Shown: positions 5,048 through 23,600 of the stretch, in pieces | Layout of the letters: each line of letters opens with the position of its first letter | Numbering within the stretch: position 1 is the first letter of the stretch | Assembly (NCBI GenBank): GCA_000002445.1 | Contig: CM000208.1 | Coordinates: 224,001-288,000, forward strand | From: Trypanosoma brucei | Lineage: Eukaryota | DNA: 64,000 nucleotides | Direction of reading: 5' to 3' | Program-made: the position numbers and the translations under genes | The notes under the pieces: generated by a model | Database searches by the model: none | What the model saw: only the letters and a program-made list of their open reading frames with translations | Told to the model about the DNA's origin: nothing

Positions 5048-5802
5048 CGTATCTTATCTTTTTTTGTTTTCAAACTGTTACAACAGCCTTCTATTCATGG
5101 CATCGCGATATCATTGTTGTTACTACTATTGCATCAAATGTCGGTAGCGTCGGTTTGGATAACTCTGTGTTACCAACTCACTCGAGTCCCTCGCAGTGCA
5201 CCTCTTGTTTTTGTGGAGGACACCAGTGGGGGGGGGGGTGAAATTGAGAGACGAAAAATGCACTCTCCATTTGCTGCCCTCTCCGCCTCCAACTGCCGCC
5301 GATGTTTCTGCGTGGTGCGTGGAAAAGAGAGGGGATTAGCGAGAAGGTGGGGAGGGGAACGGGGAAATAACGAACGGTCAACGATCACTTGTAAAAAGGA
5401 AAAGAAAACGATTGCTTCCGGGCGTGTGTCCGTGTGTGGGAGAGAGAAGGGGAAGGCGAAGCAAAGGAAGTTATTTTCCCCTGTTAGATAACGATCTGGG
5501 AGAAGTGTCTGCATACTCCTTTCTTCCACTATTCCCACTCACTCCGTTCGTTTTGTGTGCGTACTTTTTGGTGGTGATTAGCTAGCGCGTAAATCAAAAG
5601 CTTGAACTTGCGTGTAACACTACTTTTTACACCTCACCCTACTCAGTACAGTTATAATCGTTTATTTATTGTCTTCTTTTTTTAAAAAAAATATTATTAT
5701 TTTAACTTTCCTTTGAACACCCACATTTTATGTCGTTCTGTAGTGGTATTCGCGGTTGTCCAGCAGCGAACGGAAAGAGGAGAGGCAAAGAAAAGGGTGC
5801 TT

Positions 5803-8800: not shown

Positions 8801-9858
8801 TTGACGTACCAGAGCAAGAGCAGTCCGTGGATGGTGTTCTGGCACTTATTGCTCGCGCCTACGCGAACAAAGCCAGTGGTGCCAGCATGCAAGTGGCGTT
8901 TGCCGATAGGGAAGAGGTGTCAACCGCAATTCAGTCGCTCAATACAGCAGTGCAACTGCTCCAACAGTCTTTACCAACAGTAAGGCGCAGAGCATGCTCC
9001 GATGTAAGAAGTAGAGGACGCGCTGCTGTCGATAACTCACCGCGTAGCTCCCCAACTGGTGTAAGGAAAGTGCCTTCGAGGGGGCGGCCCATGACATTCA
9101 GTGGTAGGGGTGCAACAACATCGCCACCAGTGCGGGCACCACAGATATCTGGAAGGAGGTTGTTGGGGCAAGCAACGCCAATGAGGTCAGCACCAACCAA
9201 CACACCGAAGAGACACAAAACACCACAGCAAGAAAAGGTCAATACCGTAGGTCCTTGTCATCCATTGATATCGAGTGCCACGCGCGTCGTGCAACTTGTG
9301 CAGCAACTGACCGGAACTCCCGTACAGCCGAAGGTAAAGCCTACCAAAACGGCAACCAAACCACTTTCGAATACAGCAGGGGAGGAACTTGCTGAAGAGT
9401 TTGTACGTTGGAGCCGTGAACAAACAATTTCTCTTGCGCTGATTGTTAAGGACTACCTCCACGACGCACTGAGGGCAATGAGTCAAGTAGCGTTAGCTCA
9501 TGATGCAGTAACCACAACATATCAAGGACTACCGGTGGATCACACGCTCAATCTGAACACGGCAAAGAGCTGTGTAACACACGCACTGAAAAGCATCGTG
9601 CAGACCATATCTTCCCTACTCTCACATCGGGAAATAAGTGAGATTGAGGGAAAATTCGGAAAAGATTACCTTTCTATGACTCCTGCGCCACGTGGCAAGA
9701 CAACCAAACAAGAGGATCCGCGCCGTCAGTGTTCTGCTCCCGCCTTGGGTCTCGCCCCGCGTCCCGCTAATATAACGTTGTCATCTGGTGATCATTGCCG
9801 AAGTGTGTCACGGGATGTTGACGGGCTTTCGGTGCGCCCGCAACGAGAGGCCCTCTAA
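5803..9858 (+). CDS. Large coiled-coil hypothetical protein (~1351 aa from the first in-frame ATG)
   Basis: The track ORF 5713..9858 begins with TTG, not ATG. The first in-frame ATG is at 5803 ('MSEPREVGYRHIL...'). There are multiple long E/L/K/Q-rich heptad segments ('LRLLLREREEQVELLHALLSEKQLLL', 'LELQRKERSVAAE' etc.). A pyrimidine tract lies just upstream, at ~5660-5712. Confidence 0.6.
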   Translation: MSEPREVGYRHILRSASATSKVNAKNRSPTVTKSPSTPTDSRGVSAARMRSFSGSSVARANPRIPQKDDSSREEVRALRLLLREREEQVELLHALLSEKQLLLNHNKAAEERLRQCDEQLGTLAAVLGLEMESQEKDNLPHTTRQAKGSELGTVKKMPSVRCILDRVQQLVYDKTHLESELDVKLQELEWAQTELEMLRGGTLSQKVSLKNDAGKCGSLAQELESQLRVNAELERTLADLKEKYIMSERILETLEKDHHQVSQVLHGKEKEVLELQRKERSVAAESSKRREYEIYHMQWKEPNNLITTHHRCHFRGDSWVGLLREKPQAMQAALLKDISLELRAPYGFITIATMESVSELVVFDVIIRHPVSLSEDDVELRLIGCSFDEMSLLLKQAENPKEGHDLVLHQLKLLQGTIVRKEEEIAALTKQLRTTKLSLEERQRQYDEESKLVHMALDETEETVKVTYSELKMRELREEELKLQLQQCSETILSRDQRIMELTAQLRELNSTVAEESEENARIRDATCSNGPGDKHDGRSAEGRKKCVENESDGLCDTLVKIPSVKMHVVEASWKGLDPLASTEAVMTLDSRAQSIVRTILIGEMATVAHVLPLKVLSLQCTCCSLRAEVQVHISSQVEDADRSTEGLDKFRPRTTIAFLEEWFNMRELIESRGRRVQSLADELTSLNLSVAAFKESGKKNEEVEKAATTGTPSCAGETSQGDEEKREEKRLCESLDQQLRLERTQVRTLQAEKRAKELALQRANDKLNEVTAAFEALQSNFAGRDHRPTRDEDANACRLADVQAKRRHGRNQKDNNMKGVCDAELAGGNESLRAERGDVWSALADAYEEYDTLYERYENAMKQLQDLESSLREKLLLTKRSHVYEKQVEELTQQKEALIAEQEKQREKEALLRETVTSHQRDIDRLQKELDRKTEWAEEVMRRLVEEEDECSRLEGAVRSLKQHSTAEVATKEKVVSNDLKTKDIQRVLYTFCTTTLGIDVPEQEQSVDGVLALIARAYANKASGASMQVAFADREEVSTAIQSLNTAVQLLQQSLPTVRRRACSDVRSRGRAAVDNSPRSSPTGVRKVPSRGRPMTFSGRGATTSPPVRAPQISGRRLLGQATPMRSAPTNTPKRHKTPQQEKVNTVGPCHPLISSATRVVQLVQQLTGTPVQPKVKPTKTATKPLSNTAGEELAEEFVRWSREQTISLALIVKDYLHDALRAMSQVALAHDAVTTTYQGLPVDHTLNLNTAKSCVTHALKSIVQTISSLLSHREISEIEGKFGKDYLSMTPAPRGKTTKQEDPRRQCSAPALGLAPRPANITLSSGDHCRSVSRDVDGLSVRPQREAL

Positions 9859-10989
9859 CCTAATTGGGTATACCCGAGAGCAAACGTGTAGGCTCGTCAA
9901 ACATTAGCGACGGTTCTGTCACCGAGCTAACCGTCGATACACCACCTGTACACCACGTATATGCTTGCGTGTCCTATTACAACAAATAACTTAAATGCCA
10001 AAAAAAAAAAAAGTATTTAAGGTGCCACACACTCTGCGATTGTACCTTCTCCAGCAGTGTGCCGAGCCTACCTTTAGCACTGTACCTTCTTGATTTGTTG
10101 TTACTTTTGACTACTGTGTTGATGAATAAGCTGAGGCACGCTCAAAGTGTAAAATAATAGTTTCATCTGAAGGGTCACCTTTTTACTGTACATTCTTTCT
10201 TTCCTTTTTTTTAAAAAAAGAAGGGGTTCACAACGTTCAGCGCACACCTGTTCATAACGCCCACGAATGAATAACTTCCCCGAATGGGAATAGTAAAAGA
10301 GAGAAGAAGATATGGCATGACACTACGGAAAACAGCACCACGTTTTTTTTTTGCTTTTCGCTTTGTATTGCTTTCGTGTGTAACTTATGGGTCATTTGTC
10401 TACACCTTTGTTTACCTCTCAACTGTATAAATATAACATAAATATGCGATTGCCTGTATTTATTTGTTCATGTACACTTCACGGAAGAGTTCTTTGTGCT
10501 TTGTAGCTAACTGAGAAGCTCATCCTTTCTCTTGTACCTTAAACTTACTCCCTATAAATGTTGGTCAATTTCTGCCGTTTTGTACTGTGATGGCTGCTTG
10601 CACGTGGATTTTTTTTTTGTGTTTCCACTTTGTGTACGTGACCGGCGTTACGAAAGCATTGTGTATCCTTGCTGTTGGGCGGTATTTTGCCTCTCACTTT
10701 GTACCAATGAAGGGCTATCCACTTGCCTGTAAAAGTTTTTTCTTGTTCTTATTACGGTGAGTCAACATGTCTGTACCTTGACAACTCTGTCCCCTTCGCT
10801 GCGATCTAGCTCCTTTTTTTTTAATTTTGTGACATTATTAAGTGCAATACATTTAGACTGTGATACGACAAACATAAACGCATCACTGTAGTCACAAGTA
10901 ACCGTTACGGCGCACGTCTTTGAGTAATTGATCCGCACGACAGAAGGCGGCACATACCGACAGGAATCACCAACATCTCAACATTGCAA

Positions 10990-12357
10990 ATGCACGACGG
11001 AGATGGCAATATTGAACTCATCATTGGCCCCATGTTCGCTGGTAAAACAACAGAACTGATGAGACGTGTCCAGCGACACAAACACGCCCAAAGATCATGT
11101 TATATCATCAACTATTCACGAAACAGTTACCAAAATCAGCGACTGTCAACTCACGACCAGCTTTCACTGACTGCCAATGTGTCCATCGCAAAACTTAGTG
11201 AAGTGTGTGATGAATGGCGTGACTACGACGTCATTGCTGTTGACAATGGCCAATTCTTCCCTGATGTTGTGGGTTTCTGTGCACGCGCAGCCAATGAGGG
11301 GAAGACTGTCATTGTGTCAGCACTCGATGTAGACTGCCGAGAAACTCCTTTTGATGAGGTTTGCCGTCTTGTTCCCCGTGCAGAATCAGTGTTGAAACTC
11401 AGTGCCGTATGCATGGAATGTCATGAGCACGATGCTTTCTTAACGTATCGCACCATCGAGAGCAACGAGCGTGAACTATATGGTGGAGCCGACATGTACT
11501 TGGCTGTGTGCAGGTGGTGTTACAAACAACTTACCATGAGCCACGTTGATGCGCAGAAGACATCTGCTTCCACAGCTGCAGTTGTGCCAAATGGTGCACA
11601 CGGTCGCATTGAACTCATCATTGGCCCCATGTTCGCTGGTAAAACAACAGAACTGATGAGACGTGTCCAGCGACACAAGCACGCTCAAAGATCATGTTAT
11701 ATCATCAAGTACACTGGGGACACACGCTACAGTGAAGGTGCTATAACTTCTCACGACCAGCGTGCACTGACTGCCAATGTGTCGGTCTCTAATTTACATG
11801 ACGTGGGTGATGAGTGGCGTAAATACGATGTGATCGCGGTGGATGAGGGCCAATTTTTTCCTGGTGTGGCCGCGTTCTGTTCCAAGGCTGCCGATTCGGG
11901 GAAGGTTGTAATTGTGTCAGCACTTGATGCCGATTACCTACAAGAGCCATTTGAAGAAATTTGCCTTCTTGTTTCCCGTGCTGATTCTGTTGTGAAACTT
12001 AGTGCCGTGTGTATGGAGTGTCACAATCGCAAAGCATCTTTTACATATCGTACTGTGAAGAGTGATGAGCGCAAACTTGTCGGTGGCAGTGATATGTACA
12101 TGTCAGTTTGCAGATCATGTTACGAAACTAAAAGGAATATGGTGCAAACTGAAAAGTACATTTACAGTTGTGTTGGGATCAATGAAGGGAGTTACTCGGA
12201 ATGTTCCCCCGGGCCAAGCGAGCGCAGTTCAGCAGGAACCTCCGGCGTCCAAACTTCCGTCAAGGTGGATGAGCAGAACTGCACTGAACCGAACACAGAA
12301 GCTAAAAAAATGCCTCTGAAGAGAAAAAGAAATCAAATGGCCGTTGATACTACTTAG
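10990..12357 (+). CDS. TK: Thymidine kinase, tandem (pseudo-dimeric) form with two homologous TK domains
   Basis: The track start at 10984 is TTG; the ATG is at 10990. The P-loop 'IELIIGPMFAGKTTELMRR' occurs twice, at aa ~10 and ~210. Both halves carry the TK zinc-ribbon Cys motifs ('AVCMECH...VCRWCY' / 'AVCMECH...VCRSCY'). A tandem-domain TK is a described peculiarity of T. brucei (established knowledge). Confidence 0.9.
   Translation: MHDGDGNIELIIGPMFAGKTTELMRRVQRHKHAQRSCYIINYSRNSYQNQRLSTHDQLSLTANVSIAKLSEVCDEWRDYDVIAVDNGQFFPDVVGFCARAANEGKTVIVSALDVDCRETPFDEVCRLVPRAESVLKLSAVCMECHEHDAFLTYRTIESNERELYGGADMYLAVCRWCYKQLTMSHVDAQKTSASTAAVVPNGAHGRIELIIGPMFAGKTTELMRRVQRHKHAQRSCYIIKYTGDTRYSEGAITSHDQRALTANVSVSNLHDVGDEWRKYDVIAVDEGQFFPGVAAFCSKAADSGKVVIVSALDADYLQEPFEEICLLVSRADSVVKLSAVCMECHNRKASFTYRTVKSDERKLVGGSDMYMSVCRSCYETKRNMVQTEKYIYSCVGINEGSYSECSPGPSERSSAGTSGVQTSVKVDEQNCTEPNTEAKKMPLKRKRNQMAVDTT
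11011..11708 (+). repeat. Two 101-nt near-identical tracts (11011-11111 and 11608-11708) at the 5' ends of the two TK domains
   Basis: Identity is 99/101 nt ('attgaactcatcattggccccatgttcgctggtaaaacaacagaactgatgagacgtgtccagcgacacaa[a/g]cacgc[c/t]caaagatcatgttatatcatcaa'). The rest of the two domains is only ~75-80% identical at nucleotide level. Confidence 0.8.
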
Positions 12358-13443
12358 TGCCAGGTGTACTATTGCGCAACGTATTGTGCCATTTTTCTGA
12401 TCTTCAAATTATTAGAGTTGTTGGTAAAACAGCGTTGCTGACCACTTAAAAAAAAAAAAGTATACATAAATAGTGGTTCTTTCCACTGTTTCCCGGGATC
12501 CTCCTCTATTTTTGAAAAAAAAAAATTTGGTTCGTTACTTTTCCCGAGGTAGACGTGTAAAATGTTTTAATGCGGCGCATACACAAGGAGAAAAGATGCT
12601 TATGTGGTCACGTTTACTGTGCTGTGCTCGCCAAGGCTTGTAGTACGCAAGGCACAATTTTCGAAACGCGGTATGTTTTCCTTATGTGCACCATCTTAAG
12701 TTGCTGCTGCCGCTGTTTCCTTAAACTTTCAGGGCATGCATCCGCCACCATTAAGCATGTTTAAACCATTGCCTGTTAGTTGGGTTTTTTTTTCCACATA
12801 ACAAACATTAACCTTATCGTAGCCGTACACCTTTGGGGATGCGGCGAGCAACAGCCATCGACGTGGCAGAAGCTGTCGCCGCTTAGAAGAACATTCACAC
12901 GAACCTGAAGGAAAACATAATACGCGTTTAGGTTTCAACTCGTGAGACGCAGTTCGCCACAGGGAAACGCTCGTACGAGCATAGAATTGCTTTTATAGAA
13001 ATCGGGAAATTAGGAGGGGAGAATTAAGAGATTAGACGTGTTTGAGGGACTATGGTGTTTTCTTGTTAAAGTGGTGAAACGCTTGTCAAGGTGGACCTTG
13101 TGTTTCCTTACCTCTGTTTGTTATTGACTTTTTTTTCCTTTTTCGTCGACCCAACTGCCTGCTAACCTGTGATCTTTGGTCCACCGCCTGTTTGTGCACT
13201 ATAGATTACCGTTGTGGTATTCCTCTCTGTGCTTCGGACTGCTTCCTCTCTTTAACCTGTTTCTTTTTTCCCTTTATAATAACGACGACAATAGTCCTTT
13301 AAGTAGAGGTCCAACCACTGCCATACTGGCACCAGCGGTTACGGTGTAGGTGTGCAATTAATTTTTCGCATAGAAGCTTCGCTACGGCAGGCAATTCCCT
13401 CCGTGCCAACTGTTATTAAAGAGTAGAATCACAGGAGGAAGAA

Positions 13444-16400
13444 ATGTTGCACAAACCATGTGTACAGGTGGTTATGCGGTTCCGCCCAAACCCTGGGGTT
13501 GCTTCTCCTTTTTACTCCACAGATGACACGGGTGCACCATGGCTTACGTACGATGAGCGTACCGTTCGTGTCGTGGAACGCGATCCGCCGATGGACCGGA
13601 AACGCGTGGAACCCAATGGGGGCCCTTGCGGTGACAGCAATGACCCCCCAGTTTCAAAAGCGCTCGTTCCAGCGCCTGTAACGAGCTACACGTTTGATGC
13701 AGTGCTCTCCGATACATCAACCCAGCGCGACGTGCACAAATGTGTTGGGGAACCTGTGATCGGTAATGTGCTGAAGGGTTACAATGCTACAATATTTTCC
13801 TATGGGCAAACAGGGAGTGGGAAGACGTATACGATGTTGGGCCCCTACGGGGGGTTGGCTGATGCTTTCTTCGAAGATAGTCCGTTCTATGGCGAGCGAG
13901 GGCTCGTACCGCGAGTAGTGGAAGAGTTGTTTAATCGTTTGAATACCATGAAATCGGAGGAGTACACGTGGCGGGTCAAGACACAAATGTTTGAGATATA
14001 CAGGGAAAATATTGTCGACTTGCTTATCGAAGGAGACCAACAACCTCAGACAGAGTATCGCATAAGGGAAGGCAAAAACAGTCAAGGTAGTTTTTGTATG
14101 TACGTTGACTCTCTAAAGGAGGTTGAATGCCGTACCGCCGCTGATTTCATGGATATACTGCAGAGGGGTGTGGCGAGCAGGCACACACGTGAAACGGGAA
14201 CAAATGACCGCTCTAGTAGAAGTCATTGCCTGCTCTGCTTATTTGTGGAGCTGAAGCACAATGAAGATTACAGTATGTGGACAGAAAGCAGGCTTAACTT
14301 CGTCGATCTTGCAGGCAGTGAACGAGTTGCGACCTCTCAAGCGGAGGGAGAGACCTTAAAAGAAACTCAATACATTAATCTCTCTCTTTCACTTCTAGGA
14401 AATGTTATCCACCGCCTTGCCGGCGGTAACACTGGACACATTCCCTACCGCGATACGAAACTGACACGAGTGTTGAAGGATTCACTCGGTGGTAATTCAC
14501 TGACCACTCTGCTATGTCACGGCACAACCGAAGCTGCAACAAAGAGTCAAACAATTAATACACTTCGATTTGCTCAAAAGGCACTTCGAATAAAAACACG
14601 TGCTGTCGTCAACAAACCATCGAAAACAACGATCAAACAACAACAGCAGGAGTTCTACAAGGAACACACAAAACAGTTGGAAAAACAAATAAGAGTTTTG
14701 CAAGAAATTATTAGAAGCCGGGAAAACACGGAAGGTGAAAATTCTATGTGCGCAAAATGTGAGAGCATGAGTGCTACGATCGCGTCATTAACAAAAGAAA
14801 TTGAAAGACTTCAGAAAGAACTTATAGCAAGAGAAGAACAGCTACAGCAAACGCAGGAAACAGGAGACTACTACAAAAAGAACTGCGAAACCCTCGAAAA
14901 CGAACTAGCAAAACTGACAGAGGAGCAAGAAGCAAACGACGCAAGGCACATCGAAGCATACACAATTCTTGAAGAAGAAAGTGAGAACCTCAGGGCTGAA
15001 ATTGAAGCGCTACAAAAGCAATTAGCAGAGAAGCCACACAAGGACGCATCCAACTCCGAAGCTCTTTCCAACAAAAATAATACGCGGAAAAATAATTATA
15101 ATGATTATAAAAACCGCGCTACTATGACAGATCGTCGAACACACTCAAATTGTTGCACAATGACTGACCCTGTTACAATTGTTATGCCTGATGTCATGGA
15201 GGATATGCAACGCCGTCTAACAAAGGAACTTATCAACTGTGGTACGATGACAGATATCCGTTCACACTCAAATTGTTGCACAATGACTGACCCTGTTGCA
15301 ATTGTTATGCCTGATGTTATGGAGGATATGCAACGCCGTCTAACAAAGGAACTTATCAATTGTGGAACAATGACGGATATCCGTTCACACTCAAATTGTT
15401 GCACAATGACTGACCCTGTTGCAATTGTCATGCCTGATGTTATGGAGGATATGCAACGCCGTCTAACAAAGGAACTTATCAATTGTGGTACGATGACAGA
15501 TGGCACCATCTCCACTAACCGCGCTACTATGACAGATTGTCGAACACACTCAAATTGTTGCACAATGACTGACCCTGTTGCAATTGTCATGCCTGATGTT
15601 ATGGAGGATATGCAACGCCGTCTAACAAAGGAACTTATCAACTGTGGCACAATGACGGATATCCGTTCACACTCAAATTGTTGCACAATGACTGACCCTG
15701 TTGCAATTGTTATGCCTGATGTTATGGAGGATATGCAACGCCGTCTAACAAAGGAACTTATCAACTGTGGCACAATGACGGATATCCGTTCACACTCAAA
15801 TTGTTGCACAATGACTGACCCTGTTGCAATTGTCATGCCTGATGTTATGGAGGATATGCAACGCCGTCTAACAAAGGAACTTATCAACTGTGGTACGATG
15901 ACAGATGGCACCATCTCCACTAACCGCGCTACTATGACAGATCGTCGAACACACTCAAATTGTTGCACAATGACTGACCCTGTTGCAATTGTTATGCCTG
16001 ATGTTATGGAGGATATGCAACGCCGTCTAACAAAGGAACTTATCAACTGTGGCACAATGACGGATATCCGTTCACACTCAAATTGTTGCACAATGACTGA
16101 TCCTGTTGCAATTGTCATGCCTGATGTCATGGAGGATATGCAACGCCGTCTAACAAAGGAACTTATCAATTGTGGTACGATGACAGATGGCACCGTCTCC
16201 ACTAACTGCGCTACTATGACAGATCTTCGTTCACACTCAAATTGTTGCACAATGACTGACCCTGTTGCAATTGTCATGCCTGATGTCATGGAGGATATGC
16301 AACGCCGTCTAACAAAGGAACTTATCAACTGTGGCACAATGACAGATGGCACCATCTCCACTAACCGCGCTACTATGACAGATCTTCGTTCACACTCAAA

Positions 16401-19400
16401 TTGTTGCACAATGACTGACCCTGTTGCAATTGTCATGCCTGATGTTATGGAGGATATGCAACGCCGTCTAACAAAGGAACTTATCAATTGTGGTACGATG
16501 ACAGATGGCACCGTCTCCACTAACTGCGCTACTATGACAGATCTTCGTTCACACTCAAATTGTTGCACAATGACTGACCCTGTTGCAATTGTTATGCCTG
16601 ATGTTATGGAGGATATGCAACGCCGTCTAACAAAGGAACTTATCAATTGTGGCACAATGACAGATCTTCGTTCACACTCAAATTGTTGCACAATGACTGA
16701 CCCTGTTGCAATTGTTATGCCTGATGTTATGGAGGATATGCAACGCCGTCTAACAAAGGAACTTATCAATTGTGGTACGATGACAGATGGCACCGTCTCC
16801 ACTAACTGCGCTACGATGACGGATATCCGTTCACACTCAAATTGTTGCACAATGACTGACCCTGTTGCAATTGTCATGCCTGATGTTATGGAGGATATGC
16901 AACGCCGTCTAACAAAGGAACTTATCAATTGTGGTACGATGACAGATGGCACCGTCTCCACTAACTGCGCTACTATGACAGAGGTTTGCCGTCAATCTAA
17001 TTCGCTTGATCGGCGTGTGTCTTGTGTATCGGGTACCGCTGAAAATGTGTCGTTGAGTGGGGAAACGTTTTGTAGGAATACATCTGTGAATACCCGTGAG
17101 TGTTCATATATTGCACGAAACACCATATTTGCTTCGAGTGTTGTTTCTTCATTTGTCCCCGTAATTGGGGAAGGACAGTTTGAGTGGTGGTGTTTGGACG
17201 ATGTGTATGCTCATGCTCTTTTGTTTTCTTACTGCAATCCACGCGATGTGGGTATCAATATTGGCTTGTTCGATGACTGTGATGATAAGGTGCTTTTGCA
17301 ATCTCTTGGAGTTGTTCATAGAACACTTGGCTCCATTCGTGCTGATTATGATGGCAGCGTCGTCTCGGTTATTCGTAGGTTTTTGGTTCAGCAACGCGGT
17401 GCCCTTGCAGGAGACGGCGCTCTTGAAGGTTGTGTGCCGTGCGAGGCTCTATTCGAGGTTCTTATATCTGCCAAAAATGCACTCTTGGTGGAGCCAATGG
17501 TCAGCGACTCCTCTACTGTGAAGGGGGAAGATAGGGTTTGTCACGGTGATGGAGAAGGTGCACTTGACAGCTGCGTATATGCTCACTTGCAAGTGGCGAT
17601 GACCGCCGTCTTCAGCATTGCACGTGAGCGCGGTGGATATTTGTCGGATATTTTCGCATCTGTGAAGGTTCAGAAAGCACTCGAAGCAATGCGTCAGTTC
17701 TTCACTTCCAGCAATTTATTTTCGAGTGGAAGTAGCAGCGTTTCTAGTACCTCCGAGGCCAACGGAGATAGTAGCAGCTTCCTCGAAGACATGCTGAGGG
17801 AAACAGAGGTCCCGCGTTTTGTACTAGGAGGTGCATTGCAACGGGCAGCCGCGCTGCTCAAGGATGATGTGGTGACCAAATTGCAGAGGCGGAGATTGTG
17901 TGGCGGACTCTCGTTGGAGGAGGCCCTTCTTGCGTGTTATTTGGCTGAAGAAAGAATCACCGCCCTCACTGAAATCGAAAATTTGAGAGAAGAAATGGTA
18001 CAGCCTGTTACACGCGAAGCGCTGGATTTAATTGACGGTGCGGTGAGGGCTTTTCTCAAGAGTGAAGAGTCCGAGGATTTCTCCGCTGAAGCCACAAACC
18101 ACATGAAAAGCAGCTCCTTCACTACCGCACTGGCATTTCTCTTCACGTACGTCGCTGCTCAAACAGCGACTGAAACCGTCGGGCTTCCTCAAGATAGCAC
18201 AGAACATGTTAGAGATGCGCTAAATGTAGTTGCGCAGACACTACTAAGGCGTTCAGTGTCACAAACTTCAAGATTTGATGTAGCACAGAGTAATACAGCG
18301 ATAGACCCAGAAAGCATGCAACAATCGTTGAGGATTATAATGGATTATGCGGAAAGTCAAGGTTACTACCCAGTCACATGCGATACGTCAGAAGCAGGCA
18401 GCCGGTCCAATCATCACTGCCAGTACTCCCAGCAAACCCGTAGAAAGGACACGCCCGACATCGACGTCACGAAAAGGGAGGCACTTATGGAAAAAATGGA
18501 TTCGCCTCGTACCACTCCAAGAAGTTCACCGCACCCTCGGTTATCCTCGCCACAAGAGCAACGACCTCAAACGAGCGTGGTTGTAGTATCGCAACCAAAT
18601 GTAACAAGCCACCACATCAACAACCTCGTTCACAGAGGAAGGATGACTAACCCTGTTGCAATTGTTATGCCTGATGTCATGGAGGATATGCAACGCCGTC
18701 TAACAAAGGAACTTATCAATTGTGGTACGATGACAGATGGCACCATCTCCACTAACCGTGCTACTATGACAGATCTTCGTTCACACTCAAATTGTTGCAC
18801 AATGACTGACCCTGTTGCGATTGTTATGCCTGATGTCATGGAGGATATGCAACGCCGTCTAACAAAGGAACTTATCAATTGTGGAACAATGACGGATATC
18901 CGTTCACACTCAAATTGTTGCACAATGACTGACCCTGTTGCAATTGTCATGCCTGATGTTATGGAGGATATGCAACGCCGTCTAACAAAGGAACTTATCA
19001 ATTGTGGTACGATGACAGATGGCACCATCTCCACTAACCGTGCTACTATGACAGATCTTCGTTCACACTCAAATTGTTGCACAATGACTGACCCTGTTGC
19101 AATTGTTATGCCTGATGTTATGGAGGATATGCAACGCCGTCTAACAAAGGAACTTATCAATTGTGGAACAATGACGGATATCCGTTCACACTCAAATTGT
19201 TGCACAATGACTGACCCTGTTGCAATTGTTATGCCTGATGTCATGGAGGATATGCAACGCCGTCTAACAAAGGAACTTATCAATTGTGGAACAATGACGG
19301 ATATCCGTTCACACTCAAATTGTTGCACAATGACTGACCCTGTTGCAATTGTCATGCCTGATGTTATGGAGGATATGCAACGCCGTCTAACAAAGGAACT

Positions 19401-22113
19401 TATCAATTGTGGAACAATGACGGATATCCGTTCACACTCAAATTGTTGCACAATGACTGACCCTGTTGCAATTGTTATGCCTGATGTCATGGAGGATATG
19501 CAACGCCGTCTAACAAAGGAACTTATCAATTGTGGAACAATGACGGATATCCGTTCACACTCAAATTGTTGCACAATGACTGACCCTGTTGCAATTGTTA
19601 TGCCTGATGTCATGGAGGATATGCAACGCCGTCTAACAAAGGAACTTATCAATTGTGGAACAATGACGGATATCCGTTCACACTCAAATTGTTGCACAAT
19701 GACTGACCCTGTTGCAATTGTTATGCCTGATGTTATGGAGGATGTGCAACGGCGGCCATCAAACAGACTTGATGCTTCCACCTCATTAAAGGTGAGCAAA
19801 AACAATGGCGACGTGGCTGTGTACGAAGCTGTTCGCTTTGGTGACGAAAAAGTAGTGGTGGATAGTTGTTCTGTGGCGTCAGTGAGTGATAGTTTCCCGC
19901 GGGATTTGTCAAGTGAGGTGGGTAAACTTCAGTTAAGGGTACTAGATCTCGGGAAAGAGGTTTACATGCTTCAGAAAGAACTTATGGCAAGAGAAGAACA
20001 GCTACAGAAAACGCAGGAAAGGGCAGACTACTACAAAAAGAACTGCGAAACCCTCGAAAACGAACTAGCAAAACTGACAGAGGAGCAAGAAAGAAACGAC
20101 GCAAGGCGTACCGAAGCATACACCATTCTTGAAGAAGAAAGTGAGAACCTCAGGGCTGAAATTGAAGCGCTACAAAAGCAATTAGCAGAGAAGCCACACA
20201 AGGACGCATCCAACTCCGAAGCTCTTTCCAACAAAAATAATACGCGGAAAACGGATAGCGACCACGCTGTTGACGGGAAGGAAAATTTGGGTCTTCATCA
20301 TGTGTCCTCTGTGAGATCACTAGTTCACTTGAGGGAAAATAAAGCAAGGGAACATCTTCGAAGTCGTTCGTTGTCCAATGGCAGGGAGCCCCCTGGTGGT
20401 GTTCTACCTACCGAGCTGAGGACATGGCCGCAGACGGCGCAGCAAAGTGCCCCCGCTGCTTGCACCCATGAAAAAGGTGTGGAACGAAAACTTTCAGAGG
20501 AACTCGATGAGAGCGACGTCGTGAACCACCTCACCGCTCAGGCAACTCCTGAAATGCTGAATCTGAAACCCGAACTATTTGTAAAAAACCCTGCTTCGTT
20601 CGATCGTTTGGTGTCATATCTTACGCGACTCGTAGAAAGGGCTGAAAGGGAACCCGGAGCGCTGAGTTGTGAGGAAAGACACCTTTCTGAGGTATTGAAG
20701 GTGTTCTCCACTTTTTACTGTGGTTATCGTTCCATTGAAAGTGGTACCGGCACTTGTCCCATTGTTGATGGGAATCTGCGTTCACGCGGTGGGAGTTCAC
20801 ATTCACTGCGTCCTAGGGCAAAAGGAATGTGGTCTCCAGAATCCTTGCGGGTTTCCCCTGATGTTGGAAGGAACGTTGACGCTGTGAAGGAAGACCAAAA
20901 TGGTAAGCATCTCGGCCCAGTGCCTTCCGCAAGTACGACATTTCGAACCGGGCGTTCTGAGAGGTGTACTTCCTCCGTTCGTGGCGTGGCGTTGGTGGGT
21001 GGGCTTTTGGCGTCGAGGAGACGCTCGTCAACTGCTCCTTCACCGACAGAGGGGCCGCGGGTCCCTCTGCAGAGGGAAGAAATAGAAGACCTGGAGGGAA
21101 TGTCAGAGTTGGTGTCTTCCATCGAGGACATGCAGTCGCAGTTAGCCTACTTCAATTTTAGCAATGAGCCAGAGCTGAGGGAGTCCATCAAGCAACTGCA
21201 ACAGCACCTCGAGGAACTCAGAGCAGTCCTGGAGAGCCAAATGTCAACGACAAAAATGTCACGATCACCCTCCTATATATCTAGTTTCAGGGGAAGCTGC
21301 TTCTCACAGGGTAACCAACAGGGTCAAGGTGTGCAAGAGGGGAAGCCACCACTAAAAGCAGAAAGCAACGGATGTCAACCTGCGACCGACAGCGCGTGTG
21401 ATACAAATTATTCAAACGGTGGCCAGACAGGCTATTTAGCTGTATGTAATGCTGTAAACACTTGCTGTGGAGGGAGAGGTGCGTTCCATCGTGGTTCGAA
21501 TAGATGCTCCCACTGGGTACCACTGAGAATGCACAGGGCAAATCACGATGAGAACGTCGGGTTGGCGATGAATGAGCCTGGTGGCTCTATTCCTCAAGGA
21601 CGGTCAAATGCTTTTGACGACGGCTCGCAACGCAAGTGTATGGCGCCGAATCGACGCAACCAGAGTGCAGTGATGAGGCGGTTGCTGGACTCTATGCGAT
21701 TTGACCTTGACTCGTATGTGTACACGGCTGCCGAACAGAATGCCGCTAGCGCTGCTTTGCTAGAGGAATCGTCTTCTCTCAAGGAAAGAGAAGCAGATAT
21801 GTGGTTACGTCTCAACCAAACAGAGTTCTGCGAGATGGCAAGGATAGAAATGAGGCTGAAAAGGGATGACTTACGGGAGCTTCAGCATGAAATCCACCGC
21901 ATGCACTTGTTGCACGATAAAGAACTCGTAGAGCGGAAACGGAGGTTGTTGATTTATTCCTATAGAAAATTGCTGGATTTTGCAAAGCGAATGTCCGATA
22001 TTCTTAAGGCACGCGAGTTCTGTACGGGCACGCTGGAAAGCCAGCGGCTGCTGCTATTAGACGAAACGTCAGATTTCACAAAAGATGTAGAAAAGTACAT
22101 TGAGGTTCTGTAG
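13444..22113 (+). CDS. Kinesin-like protein with an N-terminal motor domain and a very long repeat-rich tail (2889 aa as assembled)
   Basis: ATG at 13444. The motor motifs are present: P-loop 'GQTGSGKTYTM', switch I 'SSRSHCLL', switch II 'DLAGSE', and the neck-proximal 'LRFAQKALRIKTRAVVNK'. A single uninterrupted ORF runs through two repeat arrays. Gene length and repeat copy number may be affected by assembly collapse. Confidence 0.75.
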   Translation: MLHKPCVQVVMRFRPNPGVASPFYSTDDTGAPWLTYDERTVRVVERDPPMDRKRVEPNGGPCGDSNDPPVSKALVPAPVTSYTFDAVLSDTSTQRDVHKCVGEPVIGNVLKGYNATIFSYGQTGSGKTYTMLGPYGGLADAFFEDSPFYGERGLVPRVVEELFNRLNTMKSEEYTWRVKTQMFEIYRENIVDLLIEGDQQPQTEYRIREGKNSQGSFCMYVDSLKEVECRTAADFMDILQRGVASRHTRETGTNDRSSRSHCLLCLFVELKHNEDYSMWTESRLNFVDLAGSERVATSQAEGETLKETQYINLSLSLLGNVIHRLAGGNTGHIPYRDTKLTRVLKDSLGGNSLTTLLCHGTTEAATKSQTINTLRFAQKALRIKTRAVVNKPSKTTIKQQQQEFYKEHTKQLEKQIRVLQEIIRSRENTEGENSMCAKCESMSATIASLTKEIERLQKELIAREEQLQQTQETGDYYKKNCETLENELAKLTEEQEANDARHIEAYTILEEESENLRAEIEALQKQLAEKPHKDASNSEALSNKNNTRKNNYNDYKNRATMTDRRTHSNCCTMTDPVTIVMPDVMEDMQRRLTKELINCGTMTDIRSHSNCCTMTDPVAIVMPDVMEDMQRRLTKELINCGTMTDIRSHSNCCTMTDPVAIVMPDVMEDMQRRLTKELINCGTMTDGTISTNRATMTDCRTHSNCCTMTDPVAIVMPDVMEDMQRRLTKELINCGTMTDIRSHSNCCTMTDPVAIVMPDVMEDMQRRLTKELINCGTMTDIRSHSNCCTMTDPVAIVMPDVMEDMQRRLTKELINCGTMTDGTISTNRATMTDRRTHSNCCTMTDPVAIVMPDVMEDMQRRLTKELINCGTMTDIRSHSNCCTMTDPVAIVMPDVMEDMQRRLTKELINCGTMTDGTVSTNCATMTDLRSHSNCCTMTDPVAIVMPDVMEDMQRRLTKELINCGTMTDGTISTNRATMTDLRSHSNCCTMTDPVAIVMPDVMEDMQRRLTKELINCGTMTDGTVSTNCATMTDLRSHSNCCTMTDPVAIVMPDVMEDMQRRLTKELINCGTMTDLRSHSNCCTMTDPVAIVMPDVMEDMQRRLTKELINCGTMTDGTVSTNCATMTDIRSHSNCCTMTDPVAIVMPDVMEDMQRRLTKELINCGTMTDGTVSTNCATMTEVCRQSNSLDRRVSCVSGTAENVSLSGETFCRNTSVNTRECSYIARNTIFASSVVSSFVPVIGEGQFEWWCLDDVYAHALLFSYCNPRDVGINIGLFDDCDDKVLLQSLGVVHRTLGSIRADYDGSVVSVIRRFLVQQRGALAGDGALEGCVPCEALFEVLISAKNALLVEPMVSDSSTVKGEDRVCHGDGEGALDSCVYAHLQVAMTAVFSIARERGGYLSDIFASVKVQKALEAMRQFFTSSNLFSSGSSSVSSTSEANGDSSSFLEDMLRETEVPRFVLGGALQRAAALLKDDVVTKLQRRRLCGGLSLEEALLACYLAEERITALTEIENLREEMVQPVTREALDLIDGAVRAFLKSEESEDFSAEATNHMKSSSFTTALAFLFTYVAAQTATETVGLPQDSTEHVRDALNVVAQTLLRRSVSQTSRFDVAQSNTAIDPESMQQSLRIIMDYAESQGYYPVTCDTSEAGSRSNHHCQYSQQTRRKDTPDIDVTKREALMEKMDSPRTTPRSSPHPRLSSPQEQRPQTSVVVVSQPNVTSHHINNLVHRGRMTNPVAIVMPDVMEDMQRRLTKELINCGTMTDGTISTNRATMTDLRSHSNCCTMTDPVAIVMPDVMEDMQRRLTKELINCGTMTDIRSHSNCCTMTDPVAIVMPDVMEDMQRRLTKELINCGTMTDGTISTNRATMTDLRSHSNCCTMTDPVAIVMPDVMEDMQRRLTKELINCGTMTDIRSHSNCCTMTDPVAIVMPDVMEDMQRRLTKELINCGTMTDIRSHSNCCTMTDPVAIVMPDVMEDMQRRLTKELINCGTMTDIRSHSNCCTMTDPVAIVMPDVMEDMQRRLTKELINCGTMTDIRSHSNCCTMTDPVAIVMPDVMEDMQRRLTKELINCGTMTDIRSHSNCCTMTDPVAIVMPDVMEDVQRRPSNRLDASTSLKVSKNNGDVAVYEAVRFGDEKVVVDSCSVASVSDSFPRDLSSEVGKLQLRVLDLGKEVYMLQKELMAREEQLQKTQERADYYKKNCETLENELAKLTEEQERNDARRTEAYTILEEESENLRAEIEALQKQLAEKPHKDASNSEALSNKNNTRKTDSDHAVDGKENLGLHHVSSVRSLVHLRENKAREHLRSRSLSNGREPPGGVLPTELRTWPQTAQQSAPAACTHEKGVERKLSEELDESDVVNHLTAQATPEMLNLKPELFVKNPASFDRLVSYLTRLVERAEREPGALSCEERHLSEVLKVFSTFYCGYRSIESGTGTCPIVDGNLRSRGGSSHSLRPRAKGMWSPESLRVSPDVGRNVDAVKEDQNGKHLGPVPSASTTFRTGRSERCTSSVRGVALVGGLLASRRRSSTAPSPTEGPRVPLQREEIEDLEGMSELVSSIEDMQSQLAYFNFSNEPELRESIKQLQQHLEELRAVLESQMSTTKMSRSPSYISSFRGSCFSQGNQQGQGVQEGKPPLKAESNGCQPATDSACDTNYSNGGQTGYLAVCNAVNTCCGGRGAFHRGSNRCSHWVPLRMHRANHDENVGLAMNEPGGSIPQGRSNAFDDGSQRKCMAPNRRNQSAVMRRLLDSMRFDLDSYVYTAAEQNAASAALLEESSSLKEREADMWLRLNQTEFCEMARIEMRLKRDDLRELQHEIHRMHLLHDKELVERKRRLLIYSYRKLLDFAKRMSDILKAREFCTGTLESQRLLLLDETSDFTKDVEKYIEVL
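14819..15091 (+). repeat. 283-nt coiled-coil block 'A' (copy 1), directly 5' of repeat array 1; ~96% identical to 19969-20251
   Basis: Encodes 'LQKELIAREEQLQQTQETGDYYKKNCETLENELAKLTEEQEANDARHIEAYTILEEESENLRAEIEALQKQLAEKPHKDASNSEALSNKNNTRK'. Confidence 0.85.
15131..16985 (+). repeat. Kinesin tail repeat array 1: ~13 tandem units of 123 nt (41 aa) or 159 nt (53 aa)
   Basis: The short unit is 'TMTD[I/L/R]RSHSNCCTMTDPVAIVMPDVMEDMQRRLTKELINCG'. The long variant adds 'TMTDGT[I/V]STN[R/C]A'. I counted 7 short and 6 long units from the translation. Synonymous variants (gttatg/gtcatg, caactgt/caattgt, ggtacg/ggcaca/ggaaca) distinguish the copies. Confidence 0.9.
18643..19752 (+). repeat. Kinesin tail repeat array 2: ~9.5 units of the same 123/159-nt repeat
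   Basis: Same unit as array 1: 2 long and ~7 short copies. It is separated from array 1 by ~1.66 kb of unique coding sequence (16986-18642). Confidence 0.9.
19969..20251 (+). repeat. 283-nt coiled-coil block 'A' (copy 2), located 3' of repeat array 2
   Basis: Encodes 'LQKELMAREEQLQKTQERADYYKKNCETLENELAKLTEEQERNDARRTEAYTILEEESENLRAEIEALQKQLAEKPHKDASNSEALSNKNNTRK'. It is in direct orientation relative to copy 1. Confidence 0.85.
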
Positions 22114-23600
22114 CAGAAAAGGATGCACTTGTCGTAATATGACGTGAGGAACCAGCAGTGGGGCTTCTACCTTCGTGTCAGCGTCTCTTTCGGTTGCGGT
22201 TCGCGACAAAACAAAGCAGAATATTCATCATCAGTGTTTTTATTTGTGCATAATCCAACGATGTTGGATTAACTAACTAACGAGTGGCTTTGCTCTCTCC
22301 TTTTGTTACTGAAGGCATTGTACTTGCGATTCTCAGAATATCAACCGGAAGTGAGAGGTTGAATTTGTCCTTGCATAGAGAAAAAGCAAAAAAAAATTGT
22401 TGGTTTACATAGACACCATTAGACGCACGGTAAATTAGAAAGTAAGCAGTGAGAGCTCTGAAGAAAGATATTGATATCGATATATTAACGGATAGAAGTA
22501 ATGATAACTAAGTGCTATCCCATCGGCGACGAGTGAGGGGAATCGGGGGTGATAATGACAAACATTCTTTGCGCGATGGCGGTGTTGGGTTGGTATCTAA
22601 AGTGCAAAGAGGTGACAAAGATTTTTGTGCACATGTATTTATATATCTACACATACATAACAAGCCATCACCAATCCGAAACAACAAACAAGGGAAGGGG
22701 GAGAAGTGGTGGAATAGATGAGGAAATATGAACCCATCTTGCCAACGGCTAAATGCGTATAAATAAATGTATAGACACGTGAAAGGAAGTAAGGAATGAG
22801 GTCAGGGATGGTACCCTTTTTTGGCAATCGGTGTCCTGGTTCTCTTTATTAGTATCTCCTCTTTCAGTGTGACTTAAGTTGTTGAACGCGCCGCCTACAC
22901 CACGATTTTACGTACTTTCCATGTTTTAGGTTTATCCTTTCTCACCCTTCCGGTGTTGTGGTGTAGTTGAGTTGGATAAAGGATCGGTAGCGACAAAAAT
23001 ATCAACGAAAGAAGCATAAACAAAACAGTAAATATACCACTGTTTCTAATATAATTATTACCACTACTCTCTTTGGCTCACTTTATATTAATTACATTGC
23101 GTCGCCCTCTTTTCTGGATTCTTCCATGAGTTGCGTCGCCTGGGGATACAAATAAACAGTTTCCCTCCACCCACTTTTTTTTCGAGTGAGGGGGAGAAGC
23201 AGTGAAGGGAAGGAGGGAGTATTTGCAGAGGCGCAGCTGCGTGCGATTGCCGTTCTTTTTGTTAGAGATGTGGGTAACATGTTCGCTCTTTGACTTCTTT
23301 GTTATGGTTGTTTGGTGTTTTTTTTCTACCTATATTGTTGAAGAAATCACTCCACTGCCCTTCTGGGGTCCGATGGTGTGTTTACATACTGTCTTGGGGT
23401 ACAGGCTGTGAACTACCACGGAGCACAGTCCACCGTATAGACGGTGGCGGTGTTGGTGTTTTGGCGATACCTCGGGTCTACTTACCCGCAGTAAGGAACG
23501 CACACCCATTGATCCATTTATTTATTCTGCTCCTGCCTTCTTTTTCGTACGTTTCCAACACAGAAACGTTGCAATATACAGGGAAGTGGTAATAGTGGCA

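What the first reader, a model, noticed from the sequence alone, without database searches (positions are those of the whole stretch)
13444..22113. Giant kinesin whose tail carries two arrays of a Cys-rich 41/53-aa repeat
Downstream of a canonical N-terminal kinesin motor lies 15131-16985, ~13 copies of a 123-nt unit (159 nt with a 12-aa 'TMTDGTISTNRA' insertion). A second array of ~9.5 copies lies at 18643-19752, with 1.66 kb of unique coding sequence between them. Each unit holds a conserved 'SNCC' dicysteine and a 'TMTD' sub-repeat. This is architecturally analogous to the Leishmania K39 kinesin repeat antigen, but with an unrelated repeat sequence. Near-identical repeats varying only at a few synonymous positions point to ongoing concerted evolution. 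Proteins like this are often immunodominant antigens or cytoskeleton-associated repetitive proteins. Repeat number is probably polymorphic and may be collapsed in the assembly.
Basis: seen in the sequence. Interest (0 to 1): 0.6.

Follow-up and report, generated by a model that had tools for sequence, protein, structure and literature searches.

The report
Known flagella-connector kinesin with repeat tail
The giant repeat-bearing kinesin is real, but it is the already characterised Trypanosoma brucei protein FCP4/TbKin15 (Tb927.10.890), which ties the tip of the growing flagellum to the old one; its Cys-rich repeats are a T. brucei expansion of an older single motif, and their role is untested.

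Summary
The ORF at 13444-22113 (+) encodes 2889 aa with an N-terminal kinesin motor. It carries two arrays of a 41/53-aa unit: 13 units, then 8 units plus a 16-aa stub, separated by 1.66 kb of unique sequence.

The gene is not new. The protein is 100% identical to T. brucei TREU927 'kinesin, putative'. Published knockout primers for Tb927.10.890 (FCP4/TbKin15) abut the start and stop codons exactly. The literature places it at the flagella connector and the bloodstream-form groove, where loss releases the new flagellum tip early.

New details:
- A 298-nt coiled-coil segment is duplicated, once before array 1 and once after array 2.
- Units differ mostly at synonymous sites (pS 0.156, pN 0.0105), which argues for selection on the peptide.
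- Units group by type (short or long), not by array.
- T. b. gambiense keeps the two-array layout with other copy numbers (22 or 26, and 5), across an assembly gap.
- The unit matches a TMTD-containing repeat in T. theileri and a single-copy 'CGTMTD...KELLGCMG' element in another trypanosomatid orthologue.

The K39 analogy is architectural only, and antigenicity is untested. Most likely the arrays are a sequence-constrained modular tether or docking region. Interest is low to moderate.

The parts
13444..22113 (+). Complete ORF of Tb927.10.890 (FCP4/TbKin15), 2889 aa, about 323 kDa, pI 5.4
   Evidence: 100% identical to the TREU927 protein. Published knockout primers end at 13443 and start at 22114.
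13678..14589 (+). Kinesin motor domain (aa 79-382) with intact P-loop, switch I and switch II
   Evidence: Pfam PF00225, E 1.2e-91. Motif positions. Matches to solved kinesin motors at E about 1e-50 to 1e-62.
14794..15091 (+). Neck coiled-coil segment CC-A (aa 451-549), the ancestral copy of a 298-nt duplication
   Evidence: the repeat finder family D3. This region aligns to the neck of orthologues P0004, P0125 and P0128.
15130..16983 (+). Repeat array 1: 13 units (6 x 123 nt and 7 x 159 nt), preceded by a 13-aa TMTD lead-in
16984..18651 (+). Unique middle region (aa 1181-1736), predicted all-helical at low confidence. aa 1286-1596 are homologous to the T. theileri orthologue.
   Evidence: sequence. 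(E 5e-11 against P0127). (AlphaFold2 pLDDT 36, helices only, not reliable).
18643..19755 (+). Repeat array 2: 8 full units (2 x 159 nt and 6 x 123 nt) plus a 16-aa partial unit
19954..20251 (+). CC-A' (aa 2171-2269): second copy of the neck coiled-coil segment, 94% nt identity to CC-A
   Evidence: pS 0.076, pN 0.053. Also present in T. b. gambiense P0002.
21631..22083 (+). Conserved C-terminal domain (about aa 2730-2880) with the '[FC]-[NC]-TGTLESQRL' motif. It defines the kinetoplastid orthologue group.
   Evidence: An exhaustive HMMER search of the tail gave only 17 hits, all aligned here. Alignment A1 has invariant E94, M98, E102, F159, T161, L164, E165 and R168. Motif position.

Best explanation
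The feature is the gene Tb927.10.890 of Trypanosoma brucei brucei TREU927 (chromosome 10). It encodes FCP4/TbKin15, a 323-kDa kinesin with an N-terminal motor.

Shown in the literature. The protein sits on the new-flagellum side of the procyclic flagella connector and at the bloodstream-form flagellar groove. Its loss makes the new flagellum tip detach prematurely. The published model is that the plus-end-directed motor holds the distal ends of the growing axoneme's microtubules, while the long tail reaches the membrane junction.

Shown here. One third of the protein (986 aa) consists of two arrays of a 41/53-aa unit. Each unit is a helix-prone 'PVAIVMPDVMEDMQRRLTKEL' segment followed by two or three 'N-C-x-TMTD' sub-motifs. 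The arrays are bracketed by two copies of the neck coiled coil and separated by a 556-aa unique region. The unit's amino-acid sequence is under purifying selection. Unit types are shared between the arrays. Copy number differs between T. brucei subspecies assemblies. The unit is an expansion of an ancestral TMTD-containing element that is repeated in T. theileri and single-copy in other trypanosomatid orthologues.

Inferred. The arrays act as a sequence-specific, modular part of the tether. That could be a multivalent docking surface for junction partners, a length-setting stalk between the axoneme tip and the junction plate, or both. The conserved C-terminal domain would then provide the ancestral anchoring or cargo function. 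Exact copy number is probably not critical.

The confidence of 0.6 is for the whole statement. Identity is about 0.99 and the inferred role of the arrays is about 0.45.
For: Identity:
- 100% identity over 100% of the length to 'kinesin, putative [T. brucei brucei TREU927]' on a 4,054,025-bp contig.
- The four knockout primers published for Tb927.10.890 match once each, at 12686-12705, 13422-13443, 22114-22134 and 22438-22452. They abut the ORF exactly.
- The gene order thymidine kinase, kinesin, PIF1 helicase, ribosomal L1 is the same in the T. b. gambiense locus.

Function, from papers: flagella-connector localisation, the deletion and RNAi detachment phenotype, and the offset between the N-terminal tag and mAb62 come from PMC6771564. 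Groove localisation, the RNAi phenotype in bloodstream forms and the model linking axonemal plus ends to the junction come from PMC9826329. Thin intraflagellar filaments link flagella-connector layers to axonemal doublets, and the membrane-axoneme distance in the new flagellum is about 61 nm (PMC4731218).

Motor competence: the Pfam motor hit and intact nucleotide-binding motifs.

Constraint on the repeat: among 20 complete units pS is 0.156 and pN 0.0105, a ratio of 0.07. The 59-nt helix-coding core is identical in all 21 units except at two synonymous sites.

Shared unit types: pS between arrays (0.166) is about the same as within array 1 (0.159). Units cluster by short or long type, with S-L pS 0.20 against S-S 0.11 and L-L 0.10.

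Copy-number tolerance: 13+8 units in TREU927 against 22 or 26, and 5, in DAL972.

Ancestry: the unit aligns to the T. theileri repeat 'KELVHANTMTD' with score 50, against shuffles of 31.6 +/- 3.7 (0 of 300 reach it). It aligns to the single 'DCGTMTDSAPITPPQVIAGLKELLGCMG' of P0004 with score 52, against 31.7 +/- 4.1 (0 of 300). The same element, 'ECGTMTQ...LTCMG', is conserved in P0125. In T. theileri the TMTD repeats lie directly upstream of a region homologous to the T. brucei middle region.
Against: - No experiment addresses the repeats themselves. All functional data concern the whole protein.
- I could not read the primary paper (Varga et al. 2017). It may already describe the repeats, or include truncations that contradict this reading.
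- Structure prediction of a 4.5-unit segment was uninformative (pLDDT 38), so 'helix plus loop' is only a weak indication.
- Low pN/pS among units undergoing gene conversion is not a formal dN/dS test, because the unit pairs are not independent.
- The Cys residues are absent from the T. theileri unit. Whatever the Cys do is not the ancestral function.
- The kinesin-15 family assignment and plus-end directionality are taken from the literature and were not verified here. PDB similarity ranks kinesin-1 and KIF4 above KIF15.
Confidence: 0.6

Rival explanations
1. The Cys-, Met- and His-rich units are chemical anchoring modules. The NCC/NCG cysteines would be S-palmitoylated, or would bind metal or form redox cross-links. 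The arrays themselves would then attach the tail to the flagellar membrane, or build the dense plate or cap on the new-flagellum side of the connector.
For: 68 of 111 Cys lie in the arrays. The arrays are 6.9% Cys and 11.8% Met, against 2.3% and 2.2% elsewhere in the protein. Every unit keeps H-S-N-C-C and I-N-C-G. The protein works at a membrane junction.
Against: The homologous T. theileri unit has no Cys ('VHANTMTD'). No known palmitoylation or zinc-binding signature was matched: Pfam gave only the motor, the overlapping Microtub_bd hit in the motor region, a below-threshold MAD match and spurious summed hits. No acylation data were found. Structure prediction was uninformative.
Confidence: 0.15
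2. The arrays are a K39-like immunodominant B-cell antigen. On this view their main biological or practical significance is seroreactivity.
For: Tandem-repeat cytoskeletal proteins of trypanosomatids are often strong antibody targets; this general background comes from the K39/rKDDR paper PMC6355020. Two independent mouse monoclonals raised against flagellar cytoskeletons give an FCP4-dependent flagella-connector signal. The mAb62 signal is offset from the N-terminal tag.
Against: The epitopes are unmapped, and mAb62 does not work on western blots. No paper on the serology of this protein was found. The protein is a low-abundance, cell-cycle-restricted intraflagellar component. K39 is a different kinesin, LinJ.14.1180, with a 39-aa repeat. 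Selection on the peptide sequence points to a cellular function, not to a by-product.
Confidence: 0.1
3. The repeats are a functionally neutral expansion by slippage or unequal crossing-over. They would serve at most as a passive spacer, and the high identity would reflect recent amplification only.
For: Copy number differs widely between subspecies assemblies. Most orthologues, from 947 to 5131 aa, carry no such arrays (self-BLAST of P0004, P0124 and P0125 found no internal repeats) and differ hugely in length. Unit identity is very high.
Against: Synonymous divergence among units is substantial (pS 0.156) while non-synonymous divergence is 15-fold lower, so units are old enough to have accumulated changes that were filtered. 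The TMTD and KEL elements are conserved to T. theileri and beyond.
Confidence: 0.15
4. The arrays are microtubule-binding repeats like those of MAPs or the T. brucei MARPs. They would give the tail a second, ATP-independent grip on the axoneme.
For: Repetitive microtubule-associated proteins with 38-aa units exist in T. brucei (my own knowledge, not checked here). The protein acts at microtubule ends.
Against: Units are acidic, with net charge -2 per unit. Net charge is -29 for array 1 and -17 for array 2, and pI is about 4.8. That is the opposite of typical lattice-binding repeats. No similarity to any MAP family was found.
Confidence: 0.07
5. The two-array layout or the open reading frame is an assembly artefact.
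For: Each array (1.85 kb and 1.1 kb) is longer than a Sanger read, with units 93-98% identical. The DAL972 assembly is broken exactly here.
Against: DAL972 independently shows array, 556-aa unique region, array, with the same junctions. The junction sequences are unique. The N-terminally tagged protein localises, and deletion using the flanks removes it. Only the copy number is in doubt.
Confidence: 0.03

Closest known systems
FCP4/TbKin15 (Tb927.10.890), flagella connector protein 4 of T. brucei
   Same: It is the same gene. The protein is 100% identical, and the published knockout primers flank the ORF exactly.
   Different: Nothing differs. The papers I could read describe it only as a large kinesin of nearly 3000 aa and do not discuss the repeat arrays. 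The primary paper, Varga et al. 2017, was not available.
Leishmania K39 kinesin (LinJ.14.1180), source of the rK39/rKDDR antigens
   Same: Both are large trypanosomatid kinesins with an N-terminal motor and a long run of near-identical repeats of about 40 aa in the tail.
   Different: It is a different gene, not an orthologue; the tail search found no such protein. The unit length is 39 aa against 41/53 aa. From my own recollection, not checked here, the K39 unit is coiled-coil-like with no Cys or TMTD motif. K39 is a proven serodiagnostic antigen, whereas this protein has no serology.
Kinetoplastid orthologue group sharing the C-terminal 'FNTGTLESQRL' domain (T. congolense TCIL3000_10_750, T. 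vivax TVY486_1000870, T. theileri TM35_000123060, a Bodo saltans kinesin, and unnamed Logan assemblies)
   Same: Motor 37-40% identical, C-terminal domain about 30% identical. A TMTD element is present in T. theileri, P0004 and P0125.
   Different: Lengths range from 947 to 5131 aa. Self-BLAST of P0004, P0124 and P0125 showed no internal repeats. T. theileri has 32-aa Cys-free units, of which at least 2 are visible in a partial model. The T. congolense and T. vivax models are fragments, so their repeat status is unknown.
KIF15 / plant KIN-12 (POK) kinesins ('kinesin-15' in the nomenclature quoted by PMC9826329)
   Same: N-terminal motor and a very long tail. Plant KIN-12D/POK2 and KIF15 dominate the non-kinetoplastid hits to the full-length protein. 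The literature assigns TbKin15 to this family.
   Different: There is no tail homology. In the PDB search KIF15 (179 bits) ranks below kinesin-1 (214 bits) and KIF4 (205 bits), so similarity alone does not place the motor.
Repetitive cytoskeletal and flagellar proteins of T. brucei (MARPs, ClpGM6, FLAM3, FAZ1)
   Same: They are high-molecular-weight proteins at flagellum or cytoskeleton junctions, with long near-identical tandem repeats and variable copy number (my own knowledge; GM6 repeats as antigens appear in the listings).
   Different: No sequence similarity was found (one search returned only the T. brucei proteins as repeat matches). Those proteins lack a motor domain.

Membership tests
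Kinesin superfamily (N-terminal motor type) | Kinesin motor domain above the Pfam gathering score | tested here: met
   PF00225, 307.6 bits against a cut-off of 29.3, aa 79-382.
Kinesin superfamily (N-terminal motor type) | Intact P-loop, switch I and switch II, with the motor at the N-terminus | tested here: met
   GQTGSGKT at 121-128, SSRSH at 257-261, DLAGSE at 288-293.
FCP4/TbKin15 = Tb927.10.890 | Sequence identity to the TREU927 protein | tested here: met
   100% identity and 100% coverage, 2889 aa.
FCP4/TbKin15 = Tb927.10.890 | Published locus-specific primers flank the ORF | tested here: met
   Primers from PMC6771564 match at 13422-13443 (-) and 22114-22134 (+), immediately outside the start and stop codons.
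FCP4/TbKin15 = Tb927.10.890 | Localisation to the flagella connector or groove, and the tip-detachment phenotype | not testable with these tools
   Taken from PMC6771564 and PMC9826329.
Kinesin-15 (KIF15/POK-type) family | Phylogenetic placement of the motor within the family | tested here: inconclusive
   Full-length search: plant KIN-12/POK and KIF15 are the commonest non-kinetoplastid hits. PDB search: kinesin-1 and KIF4 score above KIF15. No phylogeny was built; the assignment is quoted.
Leishmania K39-type repetitive kinesin antigen | Orthology to LinJ.14.1180 and a 39-aa repeat unit | tested here: not met
   The unit is 41/53 aa. The exhaustive search with the unique tail found no Leishmania K39 protein.
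Leishmania K39-type repetitive kinesin antigen | Seroreactivity of the repeat in infected hosts | not testable with these tools
   No literature was found.
Kinetoplastid orthologue group with conserved C-terminal domain | C-terminal domain of about 150 aa with the TGTLESQRL motif | tested here: met
   aa 2861-2869 read TGTLESQRL. It aligns with 16 other proteins at E from 6e-78 to 3e-4 (alignment A1).

The most novel reading that the evidence does not exclude
The Cys/Met/His-rich TMTD units are not a passive stalk. They would be the material that builds the new-flagellum side of the flagella connector or groove junction. On this reading each unit is a lipid-modified, metal-bridged or redox-bridged docking module. 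The arrays multimerise or insert at the membrane to form the dense cap and filaments seen by electron tomography. Copy number, which varies between strains, would set the strength or length of the tether. The bracketing duplicated coiled coils would let the molecule fold back or zip into a bundle.
Probability: 0.15. Interest if true: 0.55.

Novelty: already known. Interest (0 to 1): 0.27.

Why it matters
The flagella connector is a mobile transmembrane junction that templates cell morphogenesis in T. brucei, and FCP4/TbKin15 is one of its few functionally validated parts. A third of this protein is a selected, lineage-expanded repeat with an ancestral TMTD core, flanked by duplicated coiled coils. 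That gives concrete constructs to test how the axoneme tip is tied to the junction: array deletions, Cys-to-Ser variants and copy-number variants. It also offers a candidate epitope for the widely used mAb62 marker. For genome annotation it flags a locus whose repeat number is unreliable in short-read and Sanger assemblies. It does not reveal a new kind of system.

Tried and rejected
- The word-index homology search with the unique middle region returned nothing, not even the protein itself. The search with the C-terminal alignment returned one hit. Both are uninformative, not negative evidence.
- AlphaFold2 single-sequence models had pLDDT 38 for a 189-aa repeat segment and 36 for 426 aa of the middle region. 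No fold searches were run because the models are meaningless.
- The primary paper, Varga et al. 2017, is not held under either its DOI or its PMC id.
- The exact-protein look-up for other assemblies encoding the TREU927 protein found none, so copy number in other strains could only be compared with DAL972.
- The supplements held for the cell-cycle phosphoproteome paper have no entry for Tb927.10.890. TMTD as a phosphosite therefore remains an idea only.
- Literature searches for palmitoylation and for tandem-repeat serology gave nothing on this protein.
- The Pfam hits Ribosomal_L19e, CheY-binding and PEPCK_N have '0 stretches'. They are sums of weak per-repeat scores and were rejected as spurious.
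- Antisense ORFs of 618 and 391 aa inside the arrays were rejected as genes. One reverse frame of the unit simply lacks stop codons.
- I considered that the two DAL972 gene models reflect a true partial gene duplication. This was rejected: their unique parts differ at only 3 of 1169 positions, which fits redundant contigs or alleles of one locus.
Full report

Yes. The window holds one uninterrupted ORF at 13444-22113 (+), 2889 aa. Pfam places a kinesin motor at aa 79-382 with E 1.2e-91. The P-loop (GQTGSGKT, aa 121-128), switch I (SSRSH, 257-261) and switch II (DLAGSE, 288-293) are intact.

Tandem Repeats Finder reports arrays at 15112-16982 and 18643-19751, with periods 123 and 159 and higher-order periods 282, 405 and 441. 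They are the only strong tandem repeats in the 64 kb. A 59-nt core of the unit occurs 21 times, all in this ORF, against none expected by chance.

Parsing the protein gives:
- Array 1: 13 units, 6 of 41 aa and 7 of 53 aa, in the order SSLSSLSLLLSLL. The last unit decays after 'TMTE'.
- Array 2: 8 full units (LSLSSSSS) plus a 16-aa stub.
- Spacer: 556 aa (16984-18651).

SNCC occurs 21 times, TMTD 51 times, and N-[CR]-[GCA]-TMT-[DE] 52 times. Of 111 Cys, 68 lie in the arrays. The arrays are also Met-rich, at 11.8%. Together they make up 986 aa, a third of the protein.

**2.

A 298-nt direct duplication lies at 14794-15091 and 19954-20251, 94% identical. The first copy encodes the neck coiled coil, the second a copy of it placed after array 2. 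The order along the protein is therefore:

motor, CC-A, array 1, middle region, array 2, CC-A', tail.

In orthologues only the neck position aligns to both copies. CC-A is therefore the ancestral copy and CC-A' the secondary one. The two copies differ with pS 0.076 and pN 0.053.

**3. What it is**

The protein is 100% identical over its whole length to 'kinesin, putative [Trypanosoma brucei brucei TREU927]' on a 4,054,025-bp contig. A paper that deleted Tb927.10.890 (FCP4/TbKin15) gives four primers for the regions 'immediately upstream' and 'immediately downstream' of the ORF (PMC6771564). Each matches the window once:
- 12686-12705 (+)
- 13422-13443 (-)
- 22114-22134 (+)
- 22438-22452 (-)

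They touch the ATG and the stop codon. The neighbouring genes fit, and the same order is found in T. b. gambiense: thymidine kinase upstream, then PIF1 helicase and ribosomal L1 downstream. Identity is settled.

**4. What is known about it** (from papers, not tested here)

- Deletion or RNAi gives aberrant or premature loss of the flagella connection.
- The protein is 'nearly 3000 amino acids' and may span hundreds of nanometres.
- The mAb62 signal depends on it and is offset from the N-terminal tag.
- In bloodstream forms it localises to the flagellar groove, and RNAi releases the new flagellum tip early.
- It is described as a kinesin-15-family, plus-end-directed motor that links the plus ends of the growing axoneme to the membrane junction.
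- Electron tomography shows thin filaments between the connector layers and axonemal doublets, and about 61 nm between membrane and axoneme in the new flagellum.
- None of the papers I could read discusses the repeats. The primary paper (Varga et al. 2017) is not held.

**5. Anatomy and evolution of the repeat**

Each unit is a helix-prone segment, PVAIVMPDVMEDMQRRLTKEL, followed by two sub-motifs (short unit) or three (long unit) of the form x-N-C-x-TMTD. The 12-aa insert, GT[IV]STN[RC]ATMTD, is itself a diverged copy of that sub-motif.

Among 20 complete units, mean pairwise pS is 0.156 and pN is 0.0105, a ratio of 0.07. The helix-coding 59 nt are invariant except at two synonymous sites. 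The units are therefore not just young copies. Synonymous changes have accumulated while amino-acid changes were removed. This is not a formal test, because unit pairs are not independent and gene conversion acts on them.

Divergence between arrays (pS 0.166) is about the same as within array 1 (0.159). Units group by short or long type, with S-L 0.20 against S-S 0.11 and L-L 0.10. So both arrays draw on the same two unit types. That fits either exchange between arrays or a duplication that happened after the two types arose.

Units are acidic, with net charge -2 each. The arrays carry net charges of -29 and -17 and have pI about 4.8. This argues against MAP-like binding to the microtubule lattice.

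**6. Other assemblies**

T. b. gambiense DAL972 has two gene models at this locus, separated by a 100-N gap. After the gap the sequence restarts in the neck and runs to the stop, with 22 units, the same 597-aa start-to-start spacing across the middle region, then 5 units and a stub.

The unique parts of the two overlapping contigs differ at only 3 of 1169 positions. They are therefore redundant contigs or alleles of one locus, not an old duplication.

The two-array layout is real in an independent assembly. Copy number is variable or unreliable.

**7. Relatives**

An exhaustive HMMER search with the unique tail (aa 2250-2889) found only 17 proteins in 1.84 billion. All align over a C-terminal domain of about 150 aa with an invariant ...F.TG.LE..RL core. 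Those with names are:
- T. congolense TCIL3000_10_750, a tail fragment
- T. vivax TVY486_1000870, a 153-aa fragment
- T. theileri TM35_000123060, a partial model
- a 956-aa Bodo saltans kinesin

Full-length unnamed orthologues from Logan assemblies are 2972, 3027 and 5131 aa long and show no internal repeats.

The T. theileri model starts inside 32-aa repeats, 'AQRAQQEKELVHANTMTD...'. These are followed by a region homologous to the T. brucei middle region (E 5e-11).

The T. brucei unit aligns to the T. theileri repeat with score 50 and to a single 'DCGTMTDSAPITPPQVIAGLKELLGCMG' element in P0004 with score 52. In both cases 0 of 300 shuffles reach the observed score, about 5 sd above the shuffle mean. 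The same element is conserved in P0125, just upstream of a conserved tail motif.

The repeat is thus a lineage-specific expansion of an old TMTD/KEL element. The double Cys is a T. brucei-lineage addition, since the T. theileri unit has none. In the 5.8-billion-protein search, only the T. brucei proteins matched the repeats.

**8. How it most likely works**

Shown. The protein has a competent-looking N-terminal motor. The gene product acts at the new flagellum tip and is needed to keep it attached (literature). The tail has a conserved C-terminal domain. The arrays are under selection for their peptide sequence but tolerate copy-number change.

Inferred. The motor engages axonemal plus ends and the conserved C-terminal domain provides the ancestral anchoring. 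The arrays, with the middle region, form a modular, sequence-specific stretch of the tether that docks junction partners, sets its length, or both. I put about 0.99 on identity and about 0.45 on this role for the arrays.

Rivals:
- Cysteine-based anchoring by palmitoylation, metal or redox chemistry: 0.15. It fits the composition but is not ancestral.
- Neutral spacer: 0.15. It is contradicted by pN/pS.
- K39-like antigen as the main significance: 0.1. It is untested.
- MAP-like microtubule binding: 0.07. The units are acidic.
- Assembly artefact of the layout: 0.03.

**9. Comparison with known things**

It is FCP4/TbKin15 itself. The K39 kinesin of Leishmania (LinJ.14.1180, 39-aa units) resembles it only in architecture.

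The kinesin-15 assignment is quoted from the literature. My similarity searches are inconclusive on it: plant KIN-12/POK and KIF15 dominate the full-length hits, but kinesin-1 and KIF4 outrank KIF15 in the PDB search.

**10. Verdict**

The gene is in the reference annotation and has been studied functionally, so the finding is 'already known'. The added value is descriptive:
- exact repeat anatomy
- the duplicated coiled coil
- evidence of selection on the unit
- the ancestral TMTD element
- documented copy-number disagreement between assemblies

Interest is low to moderate.

**11. What led nowhere**

- Two word-index searches were uninformative.
- Both structure predictions had pLDDT below 40.
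- No other assembly encodes the identical protein.
- No phosphoproteome, palmitoylation or serology data were found for this protein.

Noticed in passing
window 14794-15091 and 19954-20251: A 298-nt direct duplication (94% identical) of the neck coiled-coil segment brackets the two arrays. In T. b. gambiense the second copy carries residues of the first ('EANDARHIEAY'), which suggests gene conversion between the copies. It could allow fold-back or bundling of the molecule.
   Followed up: partly
L001 9794-9893 (T. b. gambiense DAL972, FN554973.1): A 100-N gap splits the orthologue into two gene models. Their overlapping parts differ at 3 of 1169 unique positions but carry 26 against 22 units in array 1. 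Either the repeat number is heterozygous or the locus is mis-assembled.
   Followed up: partly
window 15105-16961 (-) and 18630-19805 (-): Antisense ORFs of 618 and 391 aa lie inside the arrays. One reverse frame of the unit has no stop codon, so these are repeat artefacts and not genes.
   Followed up: yes
window 13444-22113 (Pfam scan): The Ribosomal_L19e, CheY-binding and PEPCK_N 'hits' have good whole-protein E-values but zero significant stretches. They are sums of weak per-repeat matches and could mislead automated annotation; the same families are precomputed for the database entries.
   Followed up: yes
window 264-4772 and 5713-9858 (+): Two large upstream ORFs carry the FAZ1 conserved domain, and the first also has WD40 propellers. 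Genes for flagellum-attachment-zone-type proteins therefore sit next to the flagella-connector kinesin.
   Followed up: no
window 10984-12357 (+): The thymidine kinase ORF has two TK-domain stretches, so it is a tandem-domain enzyme.
   Followed up: no
window 54259-59384 (-): Three tandem genes of 464-466 aa encode serine carboxypeptidases (Peptidase_S10). Only the first was scanned; the others are inferred from their size and spacing.
   Followed up: partly
window about 47100-54200: Plus-strand genes end near 47.1 kb and minus-strand genes begin near 54.2 kb, which makes this a convergent strand-switch region. GC drops to 0.38 at 48-50 kb. No tRNA gene was found there.
   Followed up: partly
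P0127 (T. theileri TM35_000123060), aa 1-65: The partial T. theileri orthologue begins inside 32-aa TMTD repeats that lack Cys. Its true repeat number is hidden by the truncated gene model.
   Followed up: partly
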